A stretch of DNA of 64,000 bases from Candidatus Latescibacterota bacterium (GTDB lineage Bacteria > Latescibacterota > UBA2968 > UBA8231). A program made the translations under genes and the position numbers. Below the pieces are notes generated by a model. It was not told the DNA's origin and searched no databases. It saw only the letters and a list, made by a program, of their open reading frames with translations. Below, in pieces: positions 44,630 to 61,366 of this stretch (position 1 is its first letter; the number at the start of each line of letters is the position of its first letter). The stretch is from contig CBDAOB010000005.1 in the NCBI GenBank assembly GCA_965197905.1, forward strand, positions 2,432,001 through 2,496,000, read 5' to 3'.

Positions 44630-46680
44630 ATTCGAGGGTTATGTTTCCGACGGAAGACACATCCACTTCCGGCACGATTTCGTTGTATGACAGGACGAAC
44701 AAACTCGGAAAATTAGCCGCCGTCAATTTGCGAAACGCCAGTCGAATCTGCGGTGATGCAAGCACCGCTGGCTGTTGCCCGTTGGCAACCATCTGGTCTA
44801 CCAGGCCGGTCATGCTCTGAAACAGCTGGCTGGCAACGTCCGGCGCGACGGCGACGGTCAGGCCTGTTGGCGTGGCCTGCACTGCCTCCTTTATCATTTC
44901 CTCCACCAGGGAGTCGATCGTGAGCACAGCTATGCCCTCGTCCGGCGACTCTTTCAACAACACGTTGCAGATCTGGCGTCGCAGCGCCGTGCGCACGTAT
45001 TCGGTGAGCACCTCGACGTCCTTGATCTCGCCATAATCTGCTAGCGTCTCGAGAATAGTTCGTAGATCGCGAATGGGAACGCGCTCGACCAAAAGGTTTT
45101 GCAGGACCCTTTGAACCTTGCCCAGCGGCATGATGTCGGGTATGAGCTCCTCGACGATGGCCGGGTGAGACTCCTTGAACTCATCCACCAGATGTTGCAC
45201 TTCCTGGCGCCCGAGCAACTCTCGCGCATGGGTATTCAAGACCTCGGTCAAGTGGGTAGCCAGCACGGCGACCGGCTCGACGACATTATACCCCAGGAGC
45301 TCTGCCTTCTCTCGAAGCGAAGGCACGACCCAGACGGCTGCGAGCCCGAACACCGGATCGGTGGTTTCCGAGCCTTCGATCGCATCCTCCGCGAAACCTG
45401 GGTTGATCGCCAACAGGTTCTTCGGCTGCAGCTCGCCCCGAGCGACAAGGTTGCCCTTCACGCGAATCTGGTATTCGGACGGCCCCAGCTCAGTACTGTC
45501 TCTAACCCGCACCTGGGGCGCGATGAATCCCATCTCCAAAGCAGCCACCTTGCGAATCTGGACGATGCGTTCGATCAGGTCGCCTCCCTGCTTGGCATCC
45601 ACCAGGGGCACGAGTTGGTAACCCACCTGGACCTCCAGCAGGTCGACCCGGAGGTAGTCTTCGGGACGTTCCTCAGGTTTTTCCTCTTCCTGGCGAACCT
45701 CCATTTCCATGGCCTTCCGTTGGGCATTGCTGCGGCGAACTAGAAGCGCCAGCCCCACAATCACCGATCCGATCAGCAAGAAGGGCCAGGTCGGCATGCC
45801 CGGGATGCAACCGAGACCGAACAACATGGCACCTGTGATCAATCCAGCCTGCGGTCGAGCCGTAAGCTGGCGATTGATGTCACGACCCATATTCTGGTCG
45901 GAAGAAGCCCGGGTAATAATGATGCCGGCCGAGGTAGAGGTGATCAGAGCTGGGATCTGCGTTACGAGACCGTCGCCAACTGTGAGCAGGGTATAGGTTT
46001 GGGCCGCGTCGGCGATGCTCATGCCGTGCTGCAAAATGCCGATGGCAAGCCCACCGATAATGTTTGATCAAGGTGATGAGAATGCCGGCGATCGCGTCAC
46101 CTCGCACGAATTTGCTGGCACCGTCCATGGAGCCGTAGAACTCCGCTTCCCGGGCAATATCTTCACGGCGTTTCCGCGCCGTCGTTTCGTCGATGAGTCC
46201 CGCATTCAGATCGGCATCGATCGCCATCTGCTTACCGGGCATGGCATCCAACGTGAAACGCGCCGCCACCTCGGCGACGCGGCCGGCGCCCTTCGTGATG
46301 ACGACGAACTGAATGATTATGACGATCACGAAGATGATAAACCCGAGAACGAAGTTGCCACTGACCACCACATCGCCGAATGCGGAGATGAGGCGACCGG
46401 CGTCGGCCTGACTGAGAATCAGACGGGTGGAGGCGACGTTCAGCGACAGTCGCGCCAGAGTGAGAATCAGCAGCAACCCGGGAAACACCGAGAATTCCAG
46501 CGGGGCGACAATGTATATGGTCATCATCAGGACGAGCAGCGCCACACTGATGTTACCCGTCAGCAAAAAATCCATGACATAGGTCGGCAACGGCACGATC
46601 ATCACTCCGAGAATGACGACTACGCCTACGGCCACCAGGACATCCGTGTGCCGCATCACCCTGCCAAAAAAACCGTTCAA
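44571..46680 (-). pseudogene. flhA: Export gate FlhA, +1 frameshift at 46063-46065
   Basis: [19 protein letters not shown]...GDAIAG, then frame switch (ATCAAACATT for ATCAACATT) to TVGDGLV.QIP. Confidence 0.9.
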
Positions 46681-47830: not shown

Positions 47831-48598
47831 CTAGAAAAAGCCGATCAACGCAAACATGTTGCGTTCGAGCGTATCGAGTGACTTGTTCATCAGAATGAGA
47901 AACAGGGGCAGTGAGCTGACGAGTACGAGGGACCCCACGGTGATCTGCACGGGAAAACCGACGAGGAACACGTTCATCTGCGGTACGGTTCGCGCCAGAA
48001 CTCCCATGGCTACCGAGATCATCAGCAGAGAAATCATAACCGGCGCCGCGATTTTTAATGCGACGATGAAGATCTCGCTAGACAACGCGATCAGTTTGTG
48101 AATTATGATCTCAGGAAACTGAACCCCGCCCAATGGAACGACCTCAAAGCTGCTGATCAATCCCCGAATTATAAGCAGATGCCCATCAACTGTTAACACG
48201 ATCAAAATCGCCAGGATGCTCATGAACTGGCCAATGATGGAGACCTGCTCACTGGATTGGGGATCGACGACGTTGACGATGCCAAAACCCATTTGGAAAC
48301 CCATCATCTGACCGGCGAATTGAACGGCAACGAAGAACAACAACACGGAAAATCCGAGGATCAGACCCATGAATATCTCGCGGATGACCATGATGGCATA
48401 AGGCAGGAATCCGTCCGGAATGTGCAGGGATTCCGCGTCCACCATGGGAAAGACCACAAACGAGATGACGACTGCCAAACCAATCTTCGACCGCGCCAGG
48501 TAGTTGCGGTGGCCGAACAGTGGCGCCACGATGAGAAGAGCGCTTACGCGCAGAAGAATCAGTAGAAAGACGTGAAACTCGTTAAGCCAGTATTCCAC
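47831..48598 (-). CDS. fliR: Export protein FliR
   Basis: AG...FQMG, RTVPQMNVF.VGFP. Confidence 0.93.
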   Translation of the reverse strand: MEYWLNEFHVFLLILLRVSALLIVAPLFGHRNYLARSKIGLAVVISFVVFPMVDAESLHIPDGFLPYAIMVIREIFMGLILGFSVLLFFVAVQFAGQMMGFQMGFGIVNVVDPQSSEQVSIIGQFMSILAILIVLTVDGHLLIIRGLISSFEVVPLGGVQFPEIIIHKLIALSSEIFIVALKIAAPVMISLLMISVAMGVLARTVPQMNVFLVGFPVQITVGSLVLVSSLPLFLILMNKSLDTLERNMFALIGFF

Positions 48599-48605
48599 TT
48601 TACGC

Positions 48606-48863
48606 TCACCCTACAACAGTTGGAATACTGCTCAGAATGCCGACGGTGAAATCGACCATTTTGCGAATCATCCACGGCAGCATGAACATAAGTACGGCGG
48701 CGACAGCCAGAATCTTGGGAATGAAGGTCAACGTCATCTCGTGGACCTGGGTTACCGCCTGGAAGATGCTGACAACGAGGGCTACGACCAACAGCGGGCC
48801 GGCGACATACAAGACGGTCATCAGTGCATGCTGACCGAGTTGGATGGCGTATTCAGGTGTCAT
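48606..48863 (-). CDS. fliQ: Export protein FliQ (apparently about 4 aa short)
   Basis: SIFQAVTQVHEMTLTFIPK. Confidence 0.9.
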   Translation of the reverse strand: MTPEYAIQLGQHALMTVLYVAGPLLVVALVVSIFQAVTQVHEMTLTFIPKILAVAAVLMFMLPWMIRKMVDFTVGILSSIPTVVG

Positions 48864-48879
48864 TGCCCGTCTCCCTGGT

Positions 48880-49674
48880 TCAGTTGAAGCTCCTCACGAC
48901 GGATTGAACGATTAGGTTCCAGCCGTCGACGAGCACGAAGAGCAAAATCTTGAATGGCAGCGAAACCATGATCGGGGGCAACATCATCATACCCATCGAA
49001 AGTAGAATACTGGCGACCACCAGATCGATCACGAGAAACGGTACGAAAAGGATGAATCCGATCTGAAACGCCGTCCTGAGCTCGCTGATAATGAAACTTG
49101 GAATCAACACGGAATTCGGAATTTCGCTGCGGGTTTTCGGTTGGGAGATTTTTGCCATGCGGATGAACAGAGCCATGTCCTTCTGGCGCGTCTGTTTCAT
49201 CATGAAATCACGCATCGGCTCCATGCCGCGATCCAGCGCCTCTTGATACGGTATTTCCTCGGCGATCAGGGGTTGAATGGCGTGATCGTTGACTTGGTCC
49301 CAAACCGGAGCCATTACGAAAAACGACAGGAACAGCGAGAGACCGATCAGGAGCTGATTCGGTGGCATCTGCTGAATTCCCAGGGCGGATCGGAGGAAGG
49401 ACAACACCACGAGTATCCGGGTGAACGAGGTCATCATGATCAGAATCGAAGGAGCCAGCGAGAGAATCGTCAGCAGGAAGATGATCTGCAGCGAGACGGC
49501 CGCATCTCCTCCCGATGCCGCCTCTTCCACCTGGAGGCTGATCTTCGGTAGTATTTGAGCTTCCAGCCCGGTGAACGGCGTACACAGAAACAGTATGCCC
49601 AGAGGCCAGATCCACCGTCGGTGCCGTGACCGCGACTCTTGGCGCCTGGGAGTGGCGGGATCAGGAATCGCCAT
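48880..49674 (-). CDS. fliP: Export protein FliP
   Basis: [39 protein letters not shown]; probable start ATG 49674. Confidence 0.92.
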
Positions 49675-50241
49675 TCTTGCCGCCTTCCGATCTGTTCTGC
49701 AGCTGCCCGAGTACGTTCTTGAACTGGCCGCCGAGCGAAATCTCGCCTTCCGGTGGCGAGTCAATTTCAATTCTCCCGGTTGCCATTGCCCCAACAGCGC
49801 GATTTGTGCCTCCGCGACCCCAACCGCAAGCGTATGTTCGCCAATGTCGACCAGATAGATCGCTTTCTTGGGACCCAGGAAAGCGCGCTCTTTGACGCGA
49901 ATACAACCGCTTCCGCCACCCAGTTGCTGCCCGAGCGAACTCTTTCGCAACAGGAATACGGCGCCCCACGCCAAGGCAATAACCGCGGTCAGACCCACAC
50001 CGAGCTTGAACATGAGACTCCAGTAGGAGTCCACCCCCTCGTCGGTGTCCGCCAGGTGCAATAGCGTTGAATCGTTCTTTAAGGAGTCGGAAGGTGCCGG
50101 AGTAACCTCGGCAACCGCTTCTGTGACTCCCGCCGGGGCGGTCGGCGCCTGCATGGTTGCTTCGCCCTGCGCCTGCAGGGGAAAAAACCAGAGGGCACAC
50201 GCGAAACCCGCTGGCAGCAAATGCCGACGTGATCGCTTCAT
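49661..50241 (-). pseudogene. fliO: FliO, -1 frameshift at 49765-49767 reading into fliP
   Basis: TM + [20 protein letters not shown]...VGV; the expected tail FKNVLGQLQ is in the other frame. Confidence 0.7.
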
Positions 50242-50297
50242 CTCGAGTGATTCCCTTTTTTGTCTCTGTGGTCTCTGAACCAACAAGGGACCCATCG

Positions 50298-50313
50298 AGC
50301 AACATATATGCCA
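50298..50313 (-). promoter_or_regulatory. Sigma54 promoter upstream of fliO
   Basis: TGGCATATATGTTGCT = GG-N10-GC in an intergenic gap. Confidence 0.75.
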
Positions 50314-50483
50314 TGGAAAAAGAAAAAGAGCAGGCCTGTAAAGACCTGCTCCGGCGGAGCATTTTGGTATGGAAGAGAATCTAGAGTGGGAAAATAGTGC
50401 CCGGAAGAGGAAAATTCATCCGCTGGCAGCCGGAATCACGCAACTCCATTGGACTGCCCTGTCCCCACTCTATAAGTTATTGT

Positions 50484-51103
50484 TTATAATTGATTAATAG
50501 GCGTAACCAGCTCCGTGACCCGGACTCCGAAGTTCTCCGACACGGTGACCACCTCGCCGCGGGCGAAGAGGCGTCCGTTGACCAGGATATCCACGGGATC
50601 CCCCACCTGCTTGTCCAGCTCCACCAGCGATTGCTCGCCCATGTCGGTCACGTCTTCGAGGGTCTTTCGGGTTCGACCGAGCTCGATGGACACCATAAGA
50701 TTTACGTCCATGAGGCGTGCTACGTTGGGAGAAACTCCCGCACCGGCAACCATGGCGCCGCCTGCGTCGCCACCCATGCCACCCCCGGCTCTCCGCCCTC
50801 CTCCTCCATGGCTTTGAGCATTTCGGACTCCATCATGCGCTCCACATCCTCCTGGGAGCTCATGTCATCGCCACCGTCGGTCTCGTCCTCCATCATTCGC
50901 AGCATTTCCTCTGCGAGCGGATCGAGATCTCCGTCTTCGCCGGCCTCGCCGTCTTCGTCCCCGCCGCTTACAGCTTCCTCGAGGGCCTCCATTTCGTCGG
51001 CAACGTCTTCGCCACCCTCGTCACCATCCTCTTCTTCTTCGCTGGCCTCTTCCAGGGATTCTTCCAGGTCGTCGCCCTCATGTACTTCGTCTTCTTCGGC
51101 CAT
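50484..51103 (-). pseudogene. fliN: FliN with acidic N-terminal extension, frameshift near 50790
   Basis: SPOA domain (LMDV...ELGRT...VNG..ARGEVV...FGVR) out of frame with the acidic N-part. Confidence 0.75.
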
Positions 51104-51152
51104 GTCTATATCCTTCTGTGGGTCGCTAGGCTATCTGGCGTTGCCGCTTTTT

Positions 51153-52220
51153 CTAAACCGCGGGAACCGGACGGCTGCGATCCTTGTGCAATTCCTCGTT
51201 AGAGTGATCTACGTACCTGCTTATCTGGACCGCGTTCTTGCGTCCAACCCGACCCGGCCGGCCCAGGAACTTCGGCTCTTCGTTGACGTAGAGGACCGTC
51301 GGCTCATCGATCTCGGTGTCCAGGCGCATGACGTCGCCCACCTGAAGCTCCTGAAGTTCGCGAAACGTCGCTGAACCGCGGGCAAGTTCGGCCCTCAGGG
51401 GAACGTGGGTCTTGCGTAGGCGCGCGCGGTTCATCTGCACCAGCTCGTCTTTGTTCATGCGGTTCGTGCGCACGTAACTCTGTTGACCCAGCCGGGGAAG
51501 AATGGACTCCAGCGTGAAGAAGGGATAGCAGAGACTCACCAGGCCGGAGGCATTGGTGGAGTTCACCTCGAATGCCAAAAGAATGACGATTTCGCTTGCC
51601 GCGGTGATCTGCATGAATTCAGGATTGGTTTCCAGCTCAATATCGGTCACCTCTACTCGCAGAATCGGCTCCCAGGTCGCTTCAAGATCTTCGATGACAC
51701 GTTTGACGATGCGATGAATCACACCGACCTCGATCGGCGTCAGGGTTCGTGCCTCCACTCCCTGGGATGAGCCCTTTCCACCGAAGATCCGATCGACGAA
51801 AGCGAAGGTAACCGGCATGGCGAAATCGATGATCGCCTGACCATTGGTCGGCCCCAGGGTAAACTGGTAGGAACACGACGGGTTCGAGAGCGACATGATG
51901 AACTCGGCATACGTGGTCTGATCAACGAACGCCGTGTCCACATCCACCACCGCGCGCATGGCGCCGGAGAATGTCGAACTCAGCAACCGCGCGAAGTTGT
52001 CGTGCAGATTCTCCAGGGTGCGAAGCTGATCTTTGTTGACCCGCGCCGGATGTTTGAAGTCGTAGCTGGTGACTATGCGCTGCGACGCAGCCTCTTCTAG
52101 GCCGGCATCTCCGCCACCGCCACCACCCATCGCGTCACCACCACCTCCACCACCGGCGTCGTCTCCTTCGGTTGCCGAGAGCAGGGCATCTATTTCGTCC
52201 TGAGAGAGAATATCGGCCAT
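51153..52220 (-). CDS. fliM: Motor switch protein FliM
   Basis: LSQDEIDALL, YDFKHP, ETNP. Confidence 0.95.
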   Translation of the reverse strand: MADILSQDEIDALLSATEGDDAGGGGGGDAMGGGGGGDAGLEEAASQRIVTSYDFKHPARVNKDQLRTLENLHDNFARLLSSTFSGAMRAVVDVDTAFVDQTTYAEFIMSLSNPSCSYQFTLGPTNGQAIIDFAMPVTFAFVDRIFGGKGSSQGVEARTLTPIEVGVIHRIVKRVIEDLEATWEPILRVEVTDIELETNPEFMQITAASEIVILLAFEVNSTNASGLVSLCYPFFTLESILPRLGQQSYVRTNRMNKDELVQMNRARLRKTHVPLRAELARGSATFRELQELQVGDVMRLDTEIDEPTVLYVNEEPKFLGRPGRVGRKNAVQISRYVDHSNEELHKDRSRPVPAV

Positions 52221-52229
52221 AGTTCTACC

Positions 52230-52853
52230 CTATTGTATGATGATGCTAGAGAATTCCACCTGGTCGACGACAACCTGCACCTTGTTGGTGTCATCGATCT
52301 TGAACAGCTTCGAAAACAGATCCGTGTTCAGCTTCTTTTTTATCTCGTCCTTCACCTCGTCGACAAACCCGCTCTCCAGCTGATCGATCGTCTTGGAGCG
52401 AACGATGCTTATGGAGATCGCTCTGATCCGTTGGGTATACTGCGCGAGTTTGGTGTTAACCGGTTCGTTTTCCGCCAGGCCTCCAGTGATATCGTCGCCG
52501 CTTTCCGTATCGGTCGCCCGCAGCCCGAGTATGACGCTCAGGACCACGAATCGCTCGGCGTTGGTACCCGCCGGATTCGCGGGGATATCCATCAAATCCG
52601 GAGACTGGAAGTAGTACGGCAGCGCATTGTCGACGCTCTCGTCCAGTTGGCCGGCTGCAGCCTGTTCTTGAGGAAACAGCTCCTCCTGCTCGTCCTCTGG
52701 CGCATTGTCCTTTAGCGTTACCTGGATGACGACCCAGGCCAGCACCACTTGGGCCAGCAGGACGATCGCTGCCAGCGGGCCGTACTTTTTCAGGGCACTG
52801 CCGCCGCCTCCGCCGCCGCCTCCACCTTCTTCTTCTGCAGCTTCCTCAGCCAT
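52230..52853 (-). CDS. fliL: FliL
   Basis: N-terminal TM, ANPA, C-terminal V.F..IIIQ; between motB and fliM. Confidence 0.8.
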   Translation of the reverse strand: MAEEAAEEEGGGGGGGGGSALKKYGPLAAIVLLAQVVLAWVVIQVTLKDNAPEDEQEELFPQEQAAAGQLDESVDNALPYYFQSPDLMDIPANPAGTNAERFVVLSVILGLRATDTESGDDITGGLAENEPVNTKLAQYTQRIRAISISIVRSKTIDQLESGFVDEVKDEIKKKLNTDLFSKLFKIDDTNKVQVVVDQVEFSSIIIQ

Positions 52854-52877
52854 TCCGATGCCTTCCTTCCGATTGTA

Positions 52878-53657
52878 TCACTCTTCCCCTCGCACTCCCA
52901 GTTCTGCTTCCTGCAGGAATTTCTCCACGCCCTCCTTGGACACGTCCTCTTCGTCTTCGTCGAAGCGTATCTTGATCTCGACCCGGCGATTCTGCGATCT
53001 GTTTTCCGGCGGGTCGTTCTCTACCAACGGTTTGAACTGACCGTGCCCCACCGCCGACAAACGCCGCGGCTCGATGCCCACCTCACCGGCGAATACATCG
53101 AGCACCTGCAAGGCACGAGCGCTGGAGAGCCAGTGATTGTTGCCGAACTCATCGTTCGAGATCGGAACGTTGTCCGTGTGTCCCTCTATTTCGACGGCGT
53201 TTGGCATGCGGCTTATGACAGCACCGATGGTATTCAACAGCGGCAAAATCTCCGGCTTGAGATCGGCCTTTCCGGTATCGAACAACGCCTGGTCTCGTAT
53301 GCGAATGATGACCCCTTCCGGCCCCTGCATAACCTCTACATTTTCCTTTTGGTCCTGCGCTTCGATCTCCTGCTCAATCTCGGCTTGGGCATCCTTCATC
53401 GTCGGACGTGCTTCGGTGATATCGCCCCTGACGATCGGCACATGCATCTTGATCGGCGAGGTCATGATCGGCTCGCCCGCGAGCACGCCAAGAGCGCCCT
53501 GCAGGGCACCGATCGCCTTTTCAAAGTCTTCCTGCGACGTGGTCGAAAATGACAGCAATAGTACGAAAAAGGTCAGCAGCAACGACATGAGATCACTGAA
53601 CGTCGTGATCCATGCAGGCATTGACTTGCAATCAGGACACTTTTGCTGCTTTGCCAT
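52878..53657 (-). CDS. motB: Stator B subunit
   Basis: WITTFSDLMSLLLTFFVLL, GHTD, LS..RA, NRRVEI. Confidence 0.94.
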   Translation of the reverse strand: MAKQQKCPDCKSMPAWITTFSDLMSLLLTFFVLLLSFSTTSQEDFEKAIGALQGALGVLAGEPIMTSPIKMHVPIVRGDITEARPTMKDAQAEIEQEIEAQDQKENVEVMQGPEGVIIRIRDQALFDTGKADLKPEILPLLNTIGAVISRMPNAVEIEGHTDNVPISNDEFGNNHWLSSARALQVLDVFAGEVGIEPRRLSAVGHGQFKPLVENDPPENRSQNRRVEIKIRFDEDEEDVSKEGVEKFLQEAELGVRGEE

Positions 53658-53673
53658 GGCGTGAAACCGTCAG

Positions 53674-54458
53674 CTATTCGCCGCCTCCAGCCGCATCCTC
53701 ACCCGAGGGGCGCATCTTGGGAGCCAGGAACACGGAAAGCTTGTGCTCCACAATGCGCGGATTGTCGCCAGACTGTATGGCCATGATACCCTCGATGATC
53801 ATGCGTTTGGACAGGATTTCTTTCTTCGAATACGTACCCAGCTTCGCGGCAATCGGACCAAATAAGATGTTGGCCATGATGGCACCATACATCGTGGTCA
53901 GCAATGCAAGTGCAATGCAAGTGCCATGCCAGGACCGATAGCTGCGGGGTCGTCCATATTCTTGAGCATGATCACCAGCCCGACCAGGGTGCCTATCATT
54001 CCGAAGGCGGGGGCCGTGTCCGACATACGCGCGATGATATCCTGGCCCAGCTTATGCCGCTCTTCAATGAATTGGAGCTCGGTTTCGAGAATGTCCATGA
54101 TCAAATCCGGCTCGGTGCCGTCCACGGCGAGTCGTACCCCCTGGTTGAGGAACGCGTCATCCGCATCCTCCACCGCTTGCTCCAAGGCCAGGATTCCTTC
54201 CCGGCGCGCGGTCTCGGCAAATCCAACTATCTTCTCGATGAGCTCGGTCGGCACCGGGGTTTTGTTCATGATGGCGTTCATATAAACGCCTACCAGATTG
54301 ATCACCTCGGGCAACGGGTTGGCAATAAGCGTCGCAGCTATCGTTCCCCCGACGACGATCAGAATGGAGGGGACATCGATAAACGCCGACACGTCACCCA
54401 TGGCCACGACAATGAGGGTGAAGGCGGCAACGATTCCTATGATTGTTGCGATATCCAT
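53674..54458 (-). pseudogene. motA: Stator A subunit, frameshifted by an 11-bp tandem duplication
   Basis: ARREGILALE, PAFGMIGT; GCAATGCAAGT x2 at 53901-53922; removing one copy restores ALLTTMYG (257 aa). Confidence 0.92.
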
Positions 54459-54466
54459 AGTGTATT

Positions 54467-54676
54467 CTAGCTCTGTGAAGCCCCACTATACTGGGTCTGG
54501 TGGCACCGTTTGCGGTAATCTATGACCCGCTCGATCACCGTTTCCACCGGTTCGGTGACGGTGATCTTCTTGCCCGAGAGCAGTGTTATAATGGTATCGG
54601 GCACCGAATCGACGAACTCGATCATATCGGCGTTGATCACGAACTCGCTGTTATTGAGCCGCGTGAGTTTGATCAT
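54467..54676 (-). CDS. flbD: Flagellar FlbD/SwrD-family protein
   Basis: MIKLTRLN...IN...IE...PDT.ITL..G. Confidence 0.9.
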   Translation of the reverse strand: MIKLTRLNNSEFVINADMIEFVDSVPDTIITLLSGKKITVTEPVETVIERVIDYRKRCHQTQYSGASQS

Positions 54677-54719
54677 TATCCTGCTGGCCGGGAAAAACGA
54701 CTCGGCCCCTTTCCTATAA

Positions 54720-54727
54720 ATATCGGC
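54720..54727 (-). promoter_or_regulatory. Sigma28-like -10 box upstream of flbD-motAB
   Basis: GCCGATAT in an AT-rich gap; -35 weak. Confidence 0.45.
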
Positions 54728-54818
54728 CTAAATATCAATATCTACTGAATATTATCATCGCCTGCGGGGATTTTCCCGGTCCCGACTAGAAAATCAGGCG
54801 TTACTCAAATATAACGAC

Positions 54819-57587
54819 CTACCGCTTCAAATTCACTAGCTCACTGAGTAGCTCGTCAGAGGTGGTGATGGTGCGAGCACTGGCTTGAAACCCGCGCTGA
54901 GAGAGAATCATATTGGTGAACTGCTCAGCCAGATCGACATTGGACAACTCTATCGCCCCCGAGTGAACACTGCCCTGAACCGTGCTTTCAGCGGCACCGG
55001 TTACGGCCTGACCCGAAGATTCGGTCTCGGTAAAAAGATTCTCGCCTTCGCGGCGCAGCCCTGCCGGGTTGCCGAAGGTGGCCAGGATCACCCTGCCCAA
55101 CTCCTCGGCGGTTCCGTTGCTGAACAAGCCAGTGATATTGCCATTGGACTGTATGTTCACGGATAACAGAGACCCCACCGAGCGGCCGTCCTGTTCCCGA
55201 ACCGACGCTGAGGACGGAGCGACGAACTGGGTGATCCCCCCAAGTCGATCGGTCCGATCTGCCACGATCTCGATCGCCAGGGGCGGGGCGCCGTTGGAGG
55301 GCGAGAAGCCGAGGGGTTGCCCGTCCGACGATACAAAGGTGCGCAGAGTGCCGTCATTGTTGAAGACGGCGCGACCATTGTTGCCCCGAGGCGGGTGTCA
55401 ATCCGTCGACGCTTGCCACCCAACTCCACTCATTATTGACGACACTGCGGGTAAAGGTCACGGTGAGCGAGTGGGATTCCCCCGTTTCATCGAAAACCTG
55501 GGTGTTGGTGCTGAACTCGAACGGGGGATCGCCACCAAATATCCCCGAGGTCGTAGCATCGGTAAGCCCATTGTCCAGCAGGGAGAAACTCACATCGAAC
55601 CCGGTGACGCGCGTCTGGCTGGCCCTCTCGGTGAGAATAATCTGACCGCTGCCTCCCGGATCGAGCGCCACATCAACCCCACCATAGACGTTACCCACCG
55701 CGGTGAACAGGTCGGCAAGGGTTGATGGTGGAGGACCATCGGTGTAGTTGAAGGTTCCGTCAAAACGCTCGCCGTTCGGCTTTACGCCGCTGATACGGAT
55801 GACATCGCCGCGGATGACGCTGGCGCCTGAGGTGACTGGAGGAGACAGGTCTTTGGCGACATTGGCCAGATCGTTTAGTTGATCGCCTACGGTGGCGTTA
55901 TCTCCGGTCGCGGCTGTATTTGTTGTAAACCCAAGGGAGCCAGCGACATTGTCGGGGGTTGCGTTATCCACCTGCACCGTGACGTTGGAACCTCCGGTCA
56001 CGGTCCGCAAGACCAATTGACCCAAATTGTTCGCCTGAAACAGCACCTTGTTCTTGAGGGCCCCGTTGGCATTGATAAGGGCGTTCATTTCTGCGACCAG
56101 CTCGAGTTGATCGGGTAGGGTCGAGAACTGGCGCGCCAGCCTTAGGGTTCGGTGGGTTCCCCATGGCTTTCGCCATAGCCCTCAGTCCGACTCCCATCGC
56201 TACGTTTCCAGTTCCCGCCGCCTCAAACCGGACGTGCGGATCTCCCGCATCCGGCTTCCCGACGAACGTCACATCCAGGCACACGCCACAAGGACTTCAC
56301 CTGGTAGTCAAGCTGCTTCCGATGCATACTAGTCTTACTGCTGGAGGCAATAGGCTCACGCCACTCTCCAACCCTCTGCACTTCCGCAGCATGTCCGAAG
56401 TCAGGCCCCTTCCCTCCACCGGAGTTACCCGGCTTCCTCGGTACTACGCGCCTGTCCGCCACCTCATCCAGCCCAGTCTGGCCCTCGCGGGTTACCGGTT
56501 GGAGGCACTCGCTGCTTCCACCGGATGAGGCTTCCCGTGTTGCGCCACATCTCCTCTTACACACATGCTGTCGCCACTACCCCGGCGGAACAGCTGGGTG
56601 CGCTTGTCGCTCGACTTCCCCAGCTGCAGCGGCCTTCCCTGGTTTACGGGCAGGTCGGCTTCCGCATTACACTTTTCGAGGCCTGCTCAGCGTTTACTCA
56701 CGTTACGGCCTGTGTGCTCGCCAAGTCGCCCAAGGCGACCCTCTACACCGGAGGCTTCAGCGGCTTCGTCGCCTCCACCACTGCTCCGATTGCTACCGGC
56801 TGGAGCGACCCTTGCCGGGTGGGATTCGCACCCACTGAAGATGTGCGCCTTAGCACGGCGCACCGTAAACTTTCGTGGGAATGTTTATCGTGCTCTCGCT
56901 TATTCTACCGCTGTCGTTGACGGTGATTTTCAGGCCGCCACTAGTATGTATGCTTAGATCGAGCGGAAAGGTGGGATTGGTGGTCGTCGTCAACCGCGCC
57001 GGCTTGCCGAAAACCGTGTTGGCGTTCCAGACCTTGCTGCCGCTGCCCTCAGCGCTGGCATCCAGATTTCCGGAGAGATTCACCTTGGCGGTGGCTTTGG
57101 CTTCCGACTCCCGGTCCAGTGGGATAATCAGATCCTCCAGCTCGGACTTGAAGGTGCCATCCTCATTGGCCACGTTGCCCTGAACAACCAGACCGGTACC
57201 GGGATCGTACAATCTGCCGGTGGCGTCGAATCCGAAGGTCCCGTCACGGGTGTAGAACCGATCCGGACCGGTTCCCATGATGAACATGCCGTCTCCTTCG
57301 ATCGCCAGGTCGGTCTCCACGCCCGTCGACTGGAGGGTCCCCTGGGTTACAATGGAGTCGATGCTACTCACCTTGACGCCGAGGCCGGATTGGATCGGAT
57401 TGGTCGCGGCCACCTGCCCCTGACCAGGTCCTCCTTCGCTGAGCGTCCTGCTCATGACATCGGCGAAATTGACGCGGCCCGCTTTGAAGGCGGTCGTGTT
57501 GATATTGGCCACGTTGTTGCCGATGACGTTGATTTTCGCTTGATGGGCGCGAACACCGGTGATTCCTGTAAAAATGGAGTCTAACAT
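54819..57587 (-). pseudogene. flgE: Hook protein FlgE interrupted by a group II intron and a +1 frameshift (55384-55387)
   Basis: IGNNVANINT, DLAIEGDG, YTRDG N-part; ELSNVDLA..F..MI..QRGFQA C-part; spliced and corrected length 673 codons. Confidence 0.92.
56115..56863 (-). mobile_element. ORF-less group II intron (IIB-like), 749 nt
   Basis: 5' GTGCG; domain V GAAGCCGGATGCGGGAGATCCGCACGTCCGGTTT; domain VI ending CGACCCTAC; excision restores the flgE frame. Confidence 0.95.
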
Positions 57588-57737
57588 GCTAGCTACTCCT
57601 CATCCCAATTGGGTGGTTTGAAACCGCCCCTACCGTTCCTCGGGCGGCGGTTCCGATCCACTCACGACCCTCCTTGACCGATCTGTTGCCTGCTGGATGG
57701 TTCAATCTTGCTCGATTCATGTGTGACGTCTGTAACC

Positions 57738-58418
57738 TCAATTTTTCGGCGACGGCTGTACAATGCCGCTCAGTTCTTCGATTCTCAGTTCTCGTCCGTC
57801 CGCCCAGATCCTCGCTTCATTGCCAACGTAGCGCACCGCCTGGACGTCGACCCGCTTGAGTGCGTTTGCCTGCACCGGCTGGCCGCCGGAGGTCTCGGCG
57901 ATTACCAGCGCCCTATATGCACCCGCGGGCACCTCGCTGCCAGCGGTGCTCTTGCCGTCCCACTCCACCGTGCCGTAGGAGTCGGAGACATCGAGATCCA
58001 ACTCGCGCACGAGTGACCCGCGAGCATCTAGAATTCGCAAGCTTGCTTTGCTCGCCCCTTCGGCGATTCGATACGCCAGGTCATTAGCATCGTTGCCGTC
58101 GAACTCGATCTCCGCCGTGGCAATCTCGACGGTCTTTCCAACCAGAGACGTCACCAGGTTGTTCTGAAACGCATTGTGTAGTTGGGTCTCAGCTCCCAGG
58201 TTCTTTTCCAGTCCCGCGTTCATGTTCTGGAGCTGCTCTAGGGAGCTGAACTGCGCCATCTGGGCGATGAATTCGGTGTTCTCCATCGGATTCAGCGGAT
58301 CCTGATAACGCAACTGCACAGTGAGCAACTTGAGAAAATCGTCCTTGCCCAGCTGATCTCGCCCGACCACAGGTTGGGTCGCCGCCGGGCTCTTGTTCAA
58401 AATGCTGCTTACATCCAT
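57738..58418 (-). CDS. flgD: Hook capping protein FlgD
   Basis: LGKDDFLKLL..QL.YQDPLNP, AQFSSLEQ, WDGK. Confidence 0.95.
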   Translation of the reverse strand: MDVSSILNKSPAATQPVVGRDQLGKDDFLKLLTVQLRYQDPLNPMENTEFIAQMAQFSSLEQLQNMNAGLEKNLGAETQLHNAFQNNLVTSLVGKTVEIATAEIEFDGNDANDLAYRIAEGASKASLRILDARGSLVRELDLDVSDSYGTVEWDGKSTAGSEVPAGAYRALVIAETSGGQPVQANALKRVDVQAVRYVGNEARIWADGRELRIEELSGIVQPSPKN

Positions 58419-58455
58419 TTCGACACCTCGTCAGATTTATTTGCGAATTCCATGG

Positions 58456-59538
58456 TCAAGCAAGAAGATCCAAGTCGCCGTTTCCAGCGCCGCGAACCAG
58501 GATTGGACTGCGCCTGTCCCTCTCAACGCCCTCCGCTGTGGCTTCCCGCGCACTCCCTCCGGAGAGATCGCCGCGAGTTTCCGAACCTTCTTCGCTGCGG
58601 GCAAACTGCCCTTCGCGACCTACACTGACGTCGAATCCTTCCATCGCCAGGCCTTGCTCTTCAAGCGACTCCCGCAGCTTATCCAGCTGCGCTTCGACCA
58701 GATGTTTCAGCTCTGAGTGCTGTACTACCACGTGACCGCGAACGGCTGATTCGGTAGTGCGCACCCGGAGCTCGATTTCACCCAGATCGGGCGGCTGGAG
58801 CTGCAGGCGCATCTCGGCGGCGCCGTTGCGAACCAGGGTCGCGATTCCCCGTGTAATCTGGGGCATGATAGTCTCCGCCAGCTCTTTCAACTGTGGGGCG
58901 CTGGCGGCGACCAACTGGCTCAGACGCGTCACGATCTGTCCCGGAGCTTTCTCGATGATCAGATCGGGATCCATAATCTCGTTGAAATCCAGCAACTCAA
59001 GCGGGTTCGGTTGGGGCCGCTGCAATGCCAGCTCGCCCGCCCCCCCTTCCTCCAGCTCGAAAGCCAGTTCCGTTGCCGCATCAGCCAGCAACCGGGCGGA
59101 CTCGCCCTGTTGCTCGTTCCCCTTGGGCGTGCTAACGATCAGAGCGGGATCGATTTTCTGAGCGGGCTGCTCGCCCTCGTTCTCGGGGTTCGCCTCCTCT
59201 GCCGCTACCGCGACTTGCAGCAGAGTAACCAGTGGCACATGACCTGACTCCGCATCCTCTGTGACCTCGGCGACCGCGTCTGCTTGCCCGTCATCACTTG
59301 GTTCGGCTGCGCCGTGCTCGTCGCGCTCAACAGCGACACCGGCGCGATCCTCCTGCGGGATGCGGTTGGTCGCCTTTGGATCGGCGTTGTCCCTTTCGGC
59401 GTGAAGATCCTGCTCTTCTTGTTCGCGCCGGAGAATCTCGTCGAAATCGAATGTGCCAACCCCATTTTGCCGGGACGGCTTGTCCAGCTCCTGAATTCCG
59501 GGCGCTACGGATGCCGCGGCTCCGAATATTTCGAACAT
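58456..59538 (-). CDS. fliK: Hook-length control protein FliK
   Basis: C-terminal LQLQPPDLG.I...L..LRESLEEQG. Confidence 0.88.
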   Translation of the reverse strand: MFEIFGAAASVAPGIQELDKPSRQNGVGTFDFDEILRREQEEQDLHAERDNADPKATNRIPQEDRAGVAVERDEHGAAEPSDDGQADAVAEVTEDAESGHVPLVTLLQVAVAAEEANPENEGEQPAQKIDPALIVSTPKGNEQQGESARLLADAATELAFELEEGGAGELALQRPQPNPLELLDFNEIMDPDLIIEKAPGQIVTRLSQLVAASAPQLKELAETIMPQITRGIATLVRNGAAEMRLQLQPPDLGEIELRVRTTESAVRGHVVVQHSELKHLVEAQLDKLRESLEEQGLAMEGFDVSVGREGQFARSEEGSETRGDLSGGSAREATAEGVERDRRSPILVRGAGNGDLDLLA

Positions 59539-59562
59539 CTATTTGCTCCTCAAACGTTTCAG

Positions 59563-60018
59563 CTATTCGCGTTCGTTCCGTCGACGCAGGTACAGCTGTG
59601 TGCCAACGTCGTCCAGCAGTCTCCGTTCCTGCCGCTTTTGTTCACGCTTGTAGGTTTCCTCCCTCTGCTCCCTCAGGATCTCGAACACGCGACGTTCCTT
59701 GGTCGCCTCCATCAAATCCTTCCGCTTCTCTTCAACCACTGATTCCACCTGTCGGATCTGCTCTTGTTTTTCGCCACATTCCCGTTTCAGCCGCTGCAGG
59801 TAGGATGCCTGCACATCGAGCAGGTTGGCGTTTACCGGAGCCGCCGGTTGGAAACGACCGGCCTGCAGACATCGCCTGCGTGTATCCTGCAGATCCCTGA
59901 GAGTCTCTTCTTCCCGATTGAGAACCGACACCACCTCTCCGAGGGCTGCTTTGCGAGCATCTTCCATGCGTCCCTTGATCTCCAGGACCCGCTGAAAGCG
60001 ATACGCGAACTGCCTCAT
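59563..60018 (-). CDS. fliJ: FliJ
   Basis: F.YRFQRVL..K...E, coiled coil, E...LDD; follows fliI. Confidence 0.88.
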   Translation of the reverse strand: MRQFAYRFQRVLEIKGRMEDARKAALGEVVSVLNREEETLRDLQDTRRRCLQAGRFQPAAPVNANLLDVQASYLQRLKRECGEKQEQIRQVESVVEEKRKDLMEATKERRVFEILREQREETYKREQKRQERRLLDDVGTQLYLRRRNERE

Positions 60019-60025
60019 GAATCAA

Positions 60026-61366
60026 TCAAGCGACTTCCGCCTCGCCGCGCGGCTGGAGAAGACCCAGCAATTGCTGCACGTGCTGACCCATGTTCGATCC
60101 CGCATCAAGCCCCTGTCGCAAGAAATCGTTGATCGGATCTATAAACTCGAGCGCTCTGTCGATTTGCGGATTGCTGCCCCGCGCGTAAGCCCCGATGCTT
60201 ACGAGATCCTCCGCTTCCTGATACGCCGCCACGATCGACTTCACCTCCACTGCCTGCTCTATGTGCTCGGCGCTGGCCACGTCCCTCATGGCGCGGCTGA
60301 TACTCTCGCCGATGTCCACCGGCGGGTAGTGTCCTCTTGACGCCAGGCGTCGCGACAGCACAATGTGGCCGTCCAGCAGGGCGCGACTGGAATCGGCAAT
60401 CGGATCGTCGAGATCGTCTCCTTCGACGAGCACCGTGTAAAGCCCAGTGATGCTCCCCGTCTGGGTTGTACCGACTCGCTCCAGCAATTTCGGCAACATG
60501 GCGAAGACCGAGGGTGTATATCCCTTGGTAGTAGGAGGCTCTCCTGCCGCCAACCCGATCTCTCGCTGAGCCATCGCCATGCGTGTCAGTGAATCCATCA
60601 TCAACATTACGTCATTGCCGTCATCGCGGAAGTATTCGGCGATCGTCGTCGCCACCAGCGCCGCTTTTAGCCGGATCAGCGCCGGCTGATCCGAGGTGGC
60701 TACTACAACTACGGAGCGATTTAGGCCGTCTTCTCCGAGGCTGTCCTCGATAAATTCGATGACCTCCTTGCCGCGTTCCCCGACCAGGGCGATCACGTTG
60801 ACATCGGCTTCCGAATTACGGGCGATCATTCCCAGCAGGGTGCTCTTCCCGACACCGCTACCGGCGAAAATCCCCATACGTTGTCCCTTGCCCAGAGTCA
60901 TGAGACCGTCGATGGATCGGACTCCCGTGCCCAACGGTTCGCTCAAACGGCGGCGGCTCAACGGATCCGGTGATGGATTGTGCGCATTCCGGCGTTCCCT
61001 TGCATGTATCTGCCCTCGACCGTCCAGTGGGTTGCCCAGACCGTTGAGAATGCGCCCCCTCAACTCTCTGCCAACCGCGATCTGCAGTGGCGACCGCGTC
61101 GGAAACACAGCCGTTCCCGGCCGTATGCCTTCGATTTCTCCCAGCGGGGTCAAGAGGACGCGACTGCCATTGAACCCGACGACCTCCGCGCGGATGCCGC
61201 CTCGTGCCGGATCCCCCAAATAACAGAGCTCTCCGAGAGCCACATCTTCCGGGCCGACAGCCTCAACGATCAAGCCGACGATCTGCCTCACCTTGCCGTA
61301 GCGCGTGCGCGGATCGACCGTCTCTATGGTCTGCAGCAGCTCACTCGTGTTCATCCTCTTCGGCAT
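60026..61366 (-). CDS. fliI: Export ATPase FliI
   Basis: GIFAGSGVGKS, GERGKEV, MDSLTR, GEPP..KGY.PS, LDGHIVL. Confidence 0.96.
   Translation of the reverse strand: MPKRMNTSELLQTIETVDPRTRYGKVRQIVGLIVEAVGPEDVALGELCYLGDPARGGIRAEVVGFNGSRVLLTPLGEIEGIRPGTAVFPTRSPLQIAVGRELRGRILNGLGNPLDGRGQIHARERRNAHNPSPDPLSRRRLSEPLGTGVRSIDGLMTLGKGQRMGIFAGSGVGKSTLLGMIARNSEADVNVIALVGERGKEVIEFIEDSLGEDGLNRSVVVVATSDQPALIRLKAALVATTIAEYFRDDGNDVMLMMDSLTRMAMAQREIGLAAGEPPTTKGYTPSVFAMLPKLLERVGTTQTGSITGLYTVLVEGDDLDDPIADSSRALLDGHIVLSRRLASRGHYPPVDIGESISRAMRDVASAEHIEQAVEVKSIVAAYQEAEDLVSIGAYARGSNPQIDRALEFIDPINDFLRQGLDAGSNMGQHVQQLLGLLQPRGEAEVA

What the first reader, a model, noticed from the sequence alone, without database searches (positions are those of the whole stretch)
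56115..56863. ORF-less group II intron inside the flagellar hook gene flgE; precise excision restores the frame
Seen: on the minus strand the insert starts GTGCG (56863) and ends ...CGACCCTAC (56115). It has a canonical domain V (AGC triad, GAGA loop, AC bulge, about 56224-56259) and a domain VI with the bulged A 7 nt from the end. Joining the exons gives AAA GTT TAC G|CC GAT CAA CTC GAG CTG (KVYADQLELVAEMNAL), in frame with the next flgE piece. Unspliced RNA hits TAA four codons into the intron. No RT ORF fits in 749 nt. Known: bacterial group II introns usually encode an RT/maturase and sit in mobile or intergenic DNA; ORF-less copies in conserved structural genes are uncommon. Inference: hook synthesis depends, or depended, on splicing, either self-splicing or via a maturase in trans, which could gate motility.
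Basis: partly seen in the sequence, partly recalled or inferred. Interest (0 to 1): 0.88.

Follow-up and report, generated by a model that had tools for sequence, protein, structure and literature searches.

The report
Integron-targeting intron misfired into flgE
This is a real mobile group II intron without its own enzyme gene, one of 13 near-identical copies that mostly sit in integron recombination sites; the copy in the flagellar hook gene looks like a recent stray insertion into an already broken flagellar operon, not a motility switch.

Summary
The intron is real, with the stated ends. A near-identical strain carries the empty flgE allele, skipping exactly 749 nt. It is not a domesticated flgE intron. 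The genome holds 13 copies at 99.7-100% identity and one RT-encoding relative with the same exon-binding sites. flgE has a second frameshift downstream, and the single motA and flhA genes are broken too, so splicing would not give a working flagellum. The main target is different: 6 of 13 copies (probably 8) sit at one fixed base of integron attC sites, on the cassette strand, just after the inner L'' arm. The repeats pass the cassette core-site test (11 of 22 perfect versus 1.1 in shuffles). Covariation across 53 relatives shows ordinary EBS1/EBS2/EBS3 pairing. The RT groups with class F (g3) references, not class C. I found no such case in print. This scan already noted the same intron in nuoH and many sense-strand attC introns in other genomes. 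Splicing itself is untested.

The parts
56115..56863 (-). ORF-less group IIB intron, 749 nt, one of 13 genomic copies
   Evidence: empty allele in runs X3 and X6
56698..56837 (-). Domain I 5' part matching Rfam group-II-D1D4-4
   Evidence: 106.8 bits
56669..56672 (-). EBS2 (intron nt 192-195, GUGU); pairs with about exon -10 to -14; 3 of 4 positions match at flgE
   Evidence: family pairing 4.47 versus 3.92 shuffled, 0 of 1000 shuffles reach it; weak mutual information; exact register is my reading
56642..56648 (-). EBS1 loop (intron nt 216-222, CGUAAAC); 7 of 7 complementary to the flgE exon end
   Evidence: nt 216-220 covary with exon -1..-5 in 53 introns, MI 0.94-1.25, 77-87% Watson-Crick
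56577..56577 (-). EBS3 (intron G287), pairs with the first base (C) of the 3' exon
   Evidence: MI 1.39, 85% Watson-Crick in 27 introns
56264..56397 (-). Shrunken domain IV (about 134 nt) with a remnant of the RT start region; RT ORF deleted
   Evidence: local match to the RT intron's start-codon region; alignment
56224..56259 (-). Domain V, catalytic hairpin
56117..56222 (-). Long domain VI with branch-point A at 56121
   Evidence: fold; shared with RT-encoding relatives
56864..57587 (-). flgE exon 1 (241 codons plus 1 nt); its last 7 nt are IBS1
54819..56114 (-). flgE exon 2; first base is IBS3
55384..55387 (-). One-base frameshift in flgE exon 2 (run of G), present in run X1 contigs, absent in X3 and X6
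53901..53911 (-). 11-nt tandem duplication that breaks the single motA; present in X1 and X3, absent in X6
46063..46065 (-). Frame break in the single flhA (in a run of A; not covered by the reads laid)

Best explanation
The element is a non-autonomous (ORF-deleted) group IIB intron of the endonuclease-less class F lineage (broad sense). It is spreading now, most likely spliced and reverse-transcribed by the related RT-encoding intron at C3:1187174-1189158 (inferred). It picks targets by ordinary RNA-DNA pairing: EBS1 reads GTTTRCG, EBS3 the next C, EBS2 an ACAC-like stretch upstream (shown by covariation). Together these describe the 5' arm of the local integron attC family on the cassette strand (R'' TAAC, spacer, L''), so attC sites are its usual home (shown). 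With no endonuclease it probably reverse-splices into single-stranded lagging-strand template (inferred). flgE happens to carry a perfect EBS1/EBS3 match and was hit ectopically and recently. The hit is tolerated because the flagellar system of this lineage is already decaying. The copy can probably still splice, but the product would be a truncated hook for a motor without an intact MotA.
For: 13 copies: 9 identical, 2 with one substitution, 1 with two gaps, 1 cut at nt 700. The RT relative is identical over nt 1-225, including EBS1 and EBS2; it has YADD and scores TIGR04416 323 versus cut-off 300. All 12 sites with an intact 3' side have +1 C, counting the tandem pair as one site. Six full copies lie at the same base of attC-like repeats, 16-17 nt after the T of TAAC. 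The arrays hold mostly single co-oriented ORFs and pass the core-site test (11 of 22 scored neighbour pairs perfect; shuffle mean 1.14, maximum 6 in 10,000). An IntI scores above cut-off at C3:204281. Occupancy follows EBS pairing: 6 of 16 well-matched attC sites filled, 0 of 27 poorly matched (Fisher p 0.0013). Perfect TTTACG|C sites: 2 of 3 filled inside attC, 3 of 399 outside. RT-encoding sisters in G020 and G002 use the same position: 2 of 4 in complete attC sites, the other 2 with only the 5' arm. Flagellar decay: 6 of 24 orthologues broken versus 10 of 167 background (p 0.007, or 0.026 with 5 of 24). Congener G002 lacks window 48088-61001. All 13 sites have G>C skew on the intron's strand.
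Against: No splicing or mobility was observed; trans-action is inferred. The attC profile was seeded with three occupied sites and one empty site, so those three match by construction, and repeats are not independent. Ten well-matched attC sites are empty, and 5 of 13 copies are outside attC. Predicted pairing of the R box is low (0.01-0.02) for the three empty sites folded. The complete IntI lies about 90 kb from the nearest array; only a partial integrase heads the C2 array. The flgE and flhA breaks are in homopolymers, and X1 may be the source run, so assembly error is not fully excluded for them. Nine flagellin-like genes plus one weaker match keep open frames of 258-492 aa. The decay test used different comparators (G001 for flagellar genes, G002 for background), and some background breaks may lie in G002. 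Skews are weak (0.007-0.03) and confounded by gene co-orientation.
Confidence: 0.82

Rival explanations
1. Domesticated intron: flgE expression depends on splicing, and splicing (or maturase supply) regulates motility, as for the ORF-less dnaN introns of Trichodesmium.
For: Sense orientation, perfect EBS1/IBS1 and EBS3/IBS3 pairing at flgE, intact catalytic domains, a candidate maturase in the genome, many open flagellin frames. Precedent summarised in PMC12584367 (introduction).
Against: Identical to 8 other copies; absent from a near-identical strain and from 12 of 12 relatives aligned. Downstream frameshift in flgE, broken single motA and flhA. A congener deleted the gene.
Confidence: 0.04
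2. The intron recognises the folded attC hairpin (as class IIC-attC introns do) and base pairing is secondary.
For: Perfect IBS1/IBS3 matches are filled far more often inside attC (2 of 3) than outside (3 of 399).
Against: Five copies sit in non-attC DNA with good EBS1 pairing; poorly matched attC sites are never filled (0 of 27). Relatives with other EBS1 loops use unrelated targets. EBS2 plus an upstream TA explain the extra preference. In a folded top strand IBS1 would be paired with L'.
Confidence: 0.08
3. The flagellar frameshifts are long-read assembly errors; the operon is alive and the intron is a recent insertion that must splice for motility, without being regulatory.
For: The background break rate is about 6%; the flgE and flhA breaks are in homopolymers; flagellins are open.
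Against: The motA break is an 11-nt tandem duplication seen unchanged in contigs of two samples (X1, X3). The flgE base is kept in a 9.6-kb X1 contig at depth 5.9. G002 shows independent decay (deletion; breaks in flhB, fliF and others).
Confidence: 0.06

Closest known systems
ORF-less TeI3 introns of Thermosynechococcus elongatus and their driver IEPs (Mohr et al. 2010, PMC2882425; passages read)
   Same: ORF deleted from domain IV, many near-identical copies at EBS-matching sites, related IEP in the same genome, association with the IEP-coding intron.
   Different: TeI introns are chloroplast-like with an endonuclease domain; here the RT has none and groups with class F (g3). Here the ORF-less copy lies head-to-tail in front of the RT intron, not inside it, and the main target is attC.
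Group IIC-attC introns (S.ma.I2; PMC3001079 passages; PMC7923331 background)
   Same: Repeated insertion into integron attC sites.
   Different: They are class C, insert in the bottom strand opposite to the cassettes at R'' (TTGT/T), and use the stem-loop in place of IBS2. This one is IIB, top strand, co-oriented, after L'', with EBS1, EBS2 and EBS3 pairing.
UHB.I2 and H.ha.F1/F2 (Sonbol and Siam 2021, PMC7923331; parts 1-4 of 7 read)
   Same: Group IIB introns in cassette arrays; UHB.I2 in the same orientation as the cassettes.
   Different: UHB.I2 is a single CL1 intron placed immediately after an attC; H.ha.F1/F2 are class E fragments. Here a class F-type family inserts inside attC at the L'' end, in several copies and three genomes, with an ORF-less passenger.
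Class F / g3 introns Ni.ha.I1 and the Acidithiobacillus caldus plasmid ORF (Toro and Martinez-Abarca 2013, PMC3552965; parts 1-3 of 4 and Table S2 read)
   Same: RT-X only, about 440 aa, intron about 1.99 kb; 47-48% identical; grouped 100/100 in my tree.
   Different: Table S2 lists no attC locus or ORF-less derivative. g2, g4 and basal F references could not be fetched, so g3 versus g4 is open.
Trichodesmium erythraeum dnaN ORF-less introns spliced by the RIR intron RT (as summarised in PMC12584367)
   Same: ORF-less introns in a conserved gene with a maturase in trans.
   Different: There the host gene is a housekeeping gene and splicing coordinates its expression; here flgE is independently broken and the insertion is strain-specific.

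Membership tests
Group II intron | 5' GUGYG and 3' AY with bulged A in domain VI | tested here: met
   boundaries match the empty allele
Group II intron | Domain V with catalytic triad | tested here: met
   AGC triad, GAGA loop, AC bulge; RF00029 E 1.1e-5 but 39.2 bits versus cut-off 40
Group II intron | Domain I core and EBS1-IBS1 pairing | tested here: met
   RF02003 106.8 bits; covariation
Group II intron | Splicing via lariat | not testable with these tools
   only contigs were available; the RNA run has no flgE exon cover
Subgroup IIB | EBS3-IBS3 for the 3' exon plus EBS2-IBS2 | tested here: met
   EBS3 MI 1.39; short EBS2, 0 of 1000 shuffles reach the observed pairing
ORF class F (g2-g4 plus basal group) | RT-X without endonuclease domain | tested here: met
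   443-aa frame, only RT families hit in NCBIfam; ends after domain X like Ni.ha.I1
ORF class F, variety g3 | RT phylogeny | tested here: inconclusive
   groups with two g3 references 100/100 against one g1 reference and two other RTs of this genome; no g2, g4, basal F, C, D or E rows in the tree
Group IIC-attC introns | Class C ribozyme and IEP (CGC triad, no EBS2) | tested here: not met
   AGC triad, EBS2 present; RT closer to g3 (blastp 387 bits) than to the solved IIC RTs (phmmer about 159 bits; different programs)
Group IIC-attC introns | Insertion in the attC bottom strand at R'' (TTGT/T), opposite to cassettes | tested here: not met
   top strand, after L'', co-oriented
Trans-mobilised ORF-less introns (TeI3 type) | ORF deleted from domain IV; related IEP in the same genome; multiple young copies at EBS-matched sites | tested here: met
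Trans-mobilised ORF-less introns (TeI3 type) | IEP shown to splice or mobilise the ORF-less RNA | not testable with these tools
   needs a plasmid assay
Integron attC sites (the target) | RYYYAAC and GTTRRRY ends, inner inverted L boxes, arrays of co-oriented single ORFs | tested here: met
Integron attC sites (the target) | Each cassette's core site complementary to its own inverse core site (rule recalled; GTTRRRY crossover in PMC8876359 passages) | tested here: met
   11 of 22 scored pairs perfect (15 of 37 pairs skipped for distance or missing ends); 0 of 10,000 shuffles reach it
Integron attC sites (the target) | Integron integrase in the genome, next to the array | tested here: inconclusive
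   TIGR02249 366.7 bits versus cut-off 265 at C3:204281, about 90 kb from the nearest array; a partial integrase heads the C2 array
Integron attC sites (the target) | Recombinogenic fold of the bottom strand | tested here: inconclusive
   R-box pairing probability 0.01-0.02 in 3 of 3 empty sites folded; PMC5371416 passages note low-pfold sites in chromosomal integrons

The most novel reading that the evidence does not exclude
An undescribed class F-type group IIB intron lineage has tuned EBS1 and EBS2 to the R''-spacer-L'' arm of a Latescibacterota attC family and uses the chromosomal integron as a renewable safe harbour. It enters the top strand, which in sedentary integrons is usually the exposed lagging-strand template. 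Its ORF-less passenger is invisible in spliced RNA but splits attC in DNA, so it could lock cassettes in place. Stray hits (flgE, nuoH, ankyrin and FG-GAP genes) are by-products.
Probability: 0.35. Interest if true: 0.65.

Novelty: new variant of a known kind. Interest (0 to 1): 0.42.

Why it matters
As a flgE story it is ordinary: a young selfish insertion in a decaying operon. What remains is a further route, by plain base pairing, by which group II introns colonise integrons: a class F-type RT, the top strand, the L'' position, and a small non-autonomous form that outnumbers its driver 13 to 1. It offers a compact, testable driver/passenger pair and a natural experiment on whether intron insertion freezes cassette shuffling. 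It also shows that in-frame excision alone is no evidence that a host gene depends on splicing.

Tried and rejected
Whole-intron folding versus shuffles: no signal (z -1.33). A first regular-expression census of attC gave 32 hits, mostly noise, and was replaced by a profile search. The first background frameshift count (47 of 225) included shadow ORFs and wrong starts and was replaced by a stricter one. 'Insertion freezes attC' was tested by folding three sites empty and filled: R-box pairing 0.01-0.02 empty and 0.01-0.31 filled, so no support. RNA evidence: run X8 (sponge metatranscriptome) holds 587 nt of the intron body without a difference and an 81-nt contig ending exactly at the intron's first base, but no flgE exon; one study, contigs only, so not used as evidence of splicing or of the host's habitat. 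A scan of JGI metagenome contigs for the lineage's 5' end gave 1 locus, a different intron with a similar start. Across 168 genomes of the phylum, 20 (including this one) hold relatives, but only G002 and G020 are at 97% in the 5' 230 nt; the more distant ones shown have other EBS1 loops and other targets. The g2 reference B.th.I3 was not in the plasmid collection, and Simon et al. 2008 is not held. The two other RT families of this genome (566 aa in 11 copies; 454 aa, single) are only 30-32% identical to the cognate RT and were rejected as likely drivers. Literature searches for a natural intron in flgE found none in the listings.

Full report
Observation. The 749-nt insert on the minus strand begins GTGCG at 56863 and ends GACCCTAC at 56115, with domain V and a long domain VI as described. 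Rfam group-II-D1D4-4 matches at 106.8 bits; Intron_gpII matches at E 1.1e-5, 0.8 bits under its cut-off. The joined exons read in frame through the junction and align without a gap to the FlgE of 12 of 12 relatives fetched, none of which has the intron. A 1301-nt contig from run X3, another sample and study, joins 56114 to 56864 with one other letter in 1147 aligned bases; run X6, a more distant strain, shows the same joint. The library type of X3 and X6 is not on record; their even cover across genes and spacers suggests DNA. Run X1, possibly the source sample, has both intron junctions and no joint.

It is a young mobile element. The genome holds 13 copies: 9 identical, 2 with one substitution, 1 with two gaps and 1 cut at nt 700. 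One RT-encoding relative of 1985 nt lies at C3:1187174-1189158, directly behind an ORF-less copy. Its 443-aa frame has YADD and passes TIGR04416. It is identical to the ORF-less element over nt 1-225, which include EBS1 and EBS2, and clearly more divergent after that. The ORF-less form keeps a remnant of the RT start region in a 134-nt domain IV. Changes in one domain I helix are compensatory by inspection of the alignment. This is the pattern described for T. elongatus (PMC2882425, passages) and given as the rule for bacterial ORF-less introns (PMC4424553, passages). That this RT acts in trans is inference. In a tree of 26 RTs it groups 100/100 with two g3 (class F in the broad sense) references from Table S2 of PMC3552965; references for g2, g4, basal F, C, D and E were not in the tree. 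The host is a Latescibacterota bacterium, judging by the titles of the closest RT loci.

How it finds targets. From 80 related loci (the best 80 of 254), 62 gave a 5' boundary and 53 were distinct. Intron nt 216-220 covary with exon positions -1 to -5, and nt 287 with +1. A 4-5 nt EBS2 after a conserved GAAA pairs with about -10 to -14 better than in any of 1000 shuffles (58 pairs). Many family targets also have TA at about -16. For this intron the three sites spell TA-ACAC-n-GTTTACG|C. flgE matches EBS1 7 of 7 and EBS3, and EBS2 3 of 4. Of the 12 relatives aligned, none has this exact DNA at the site.

The usual target is attC. A profile seeded with three occupied and one empty repeat, then extended to 19 seeds, found 48 intervals at E up to 0.7, mainly in arrays at C2:5-32 kb, C3:293-362 kb and C1:177-194 kb (intron-excised coordinates). 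They separate mostly single ORFs in the same orientation. In integron arrays the four bases after GTT of one site should complement the four before AAC of the next (rule recalled). Of 37 neighbour pairs 22 could be scored, and 11 were perfect; shuffles averaged 1.14 and never exceeded 6 in 10,000. An IntI scores above cut-off, though 90 kb from the nearest array, and a partial integrase heads the C2 array. Six full copies sit in these sites at one position, on the cassette strand, right after the inner arm that I call L'' by position. The cut copy and the tandem site have the same 5' arm. Among 43 scored sites, 6 of 16 with good EBS1+EBS3 pairing are filled and 0 of 27 with poor pairing; the seeding and the kinship of repeats inflate this contrast. 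RT-encoding sisters in G020 and G002 use the same base: 2 of 4 in complete sites within arrays, 2 with only the 5' arm. A 3' fragment of another relative at C3:348603-348759 abuts a second attC subtype at the matching position. All 13 sites have G>C skew on the intron strand; rplB and dnaA are consistent with that being the leading-strand sequence. This fits entry into the lagging-strand template, as for RmInt1 (PMC8914252, abstract), and the usual orientation of sedentary integrons (25 of 30; PMC5371416, passages). The skews are weak and the sites fall in about 8 regions, so this is suggestive only.

The flagellar operon is decaying. Against proteins of G001, G015 and G016 the window shows frame breaks in flgE (near 55384), motA, fliY/N, fliO, flhA and flhG. 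flgE, motA and flhA are single-copy with the queries used. The motA break is an 11-nt tandem duplication, unchanged in contigs of X1 and X3 and absent in X6. The extra flgE base is in X1 but not X3 or X6. So in X3 motA is broken while flgE is empty and in frame, which puts motor loss before the insertion, assuming these unlinked contigs come from one strain. Six of 24 orthologues in the cluster are broken versus 10 of 167 in 19 background stretches (p 0.007; different comparators). Congener G002 (93-94% identical here) has a clean deletion of window 48088-61001 and breaks in other flagellar genes. Against this reading: two breaks are in homopolymers, flhA was not covered by the reads laid, and ten flagellin-domain matches keep open frames, so the loss is recent.

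Comparison with what is known. Class IIC-attC introns enter the bottom strand at R'' (PMC3001079, passages). PMC7923331 (parts 1-4 of 7 read; supplements not read) reports one CL1 intron just after an attC, two class E fragments in a cassette array, and cites one top-strand IIC case. Searches for intron plus attC terms listed nothing on a class F-type intron at L''; subscription journals are mostly not covered. This scan has 95 notes on introns with attC and integron words, in at least 68 genomes; I saw 8 of them, plus 8 of 9 in a second look-up. Most describe CL1 or class E introns at the R' or R'' core. They are unchecked leads, found after my attC reading, and they show that the broad habit is common. 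I also read parts of PMC8643678 (EBS2a), PMC12584367 and PMC8876359.

Verdict. Real feature, accurate description, wrong emphasis. The motility-switch idea is very unlikely (about 4%). The element is best seen as a passenger intron of a class F-type lineage that homes by base pairing to the top strand of attC, with flgE as a stray hit in a decaying operon (about 82%). New variant of a known kind; interest 0.42.

Noticed in passing
G000:C3:1186425-1189158 (L014): Head-to-tail pair: an ORF-less copy directly followed by the RT-encoding intron. The RT intron looks mosaic: identical to the ORF-less element over nt 1-225 (six shared differences against G020/G002), then more divergent, with a G-to-T change in the EBS1 stem at nt 226. 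Gene conversion or template switching is possible; unresolved.
   Followed up: partly
G000: 11 places, e.g. C3:277843, C2:1341, C5:986809: A second group II intron family (566-aa frame, about 2.14 kb) in 11 copies; several share about 1.3 kb of flanking DNA, as if carried inside another mobile element. Its RT is nearest the g1 reference in my tree, a long-branch join.
   Followed up: partly
G000:C1:176662-177351 (L013): A third RT (454 aa, + strand) overlapping an attC-like hit on the minus strand at the C1 array; possibly a bottom-strand IIC-attC-type intron, not tested.
   Followed up: no
G000:C2:5000-38000; C3:293000-362000; C1:177000-194000: Fragmented super-integron-like arrays with about 45 attC-like sites of at least two subtypes; a partial integrase gene in the same orientation as the cassettes heads the C2 array.
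   Followed up: partly
G001:C43:17586-20183 (coordinates in the joined fetch L078+L079): In congener G001, flgD (first 171 aa) and flgE are in one open frame of 865 aa, a possible deletion-fusion.
   Followed up: no
G000:C5:1962804-1994474, C5:2453910, C4:638867, 1586924, 1692750: Nine flagellin-like genes plus one weaker match with open frames, although hook, motor and export genes are broken.
   Followed up: no
L115-L117, L143, L126, L130, L150, L152, L174, L175: Other members of this RT family sit next to repeated stem-loop-like or repeated intergenic sequences, each with its own EBS1; the family seems to retarget often to dispersed repeats.
   Followed up: no
L088, L204, L205, L208, L212, L213, L221, L224, L228 (family f4 genomes): Contiguous matches over intron nt 1-661 at 70-75% identity suggest other ORF-less derivatives of this lineage in Latescibacterota; L205 follows directly on another intron's 3' end.
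   Followed up: no
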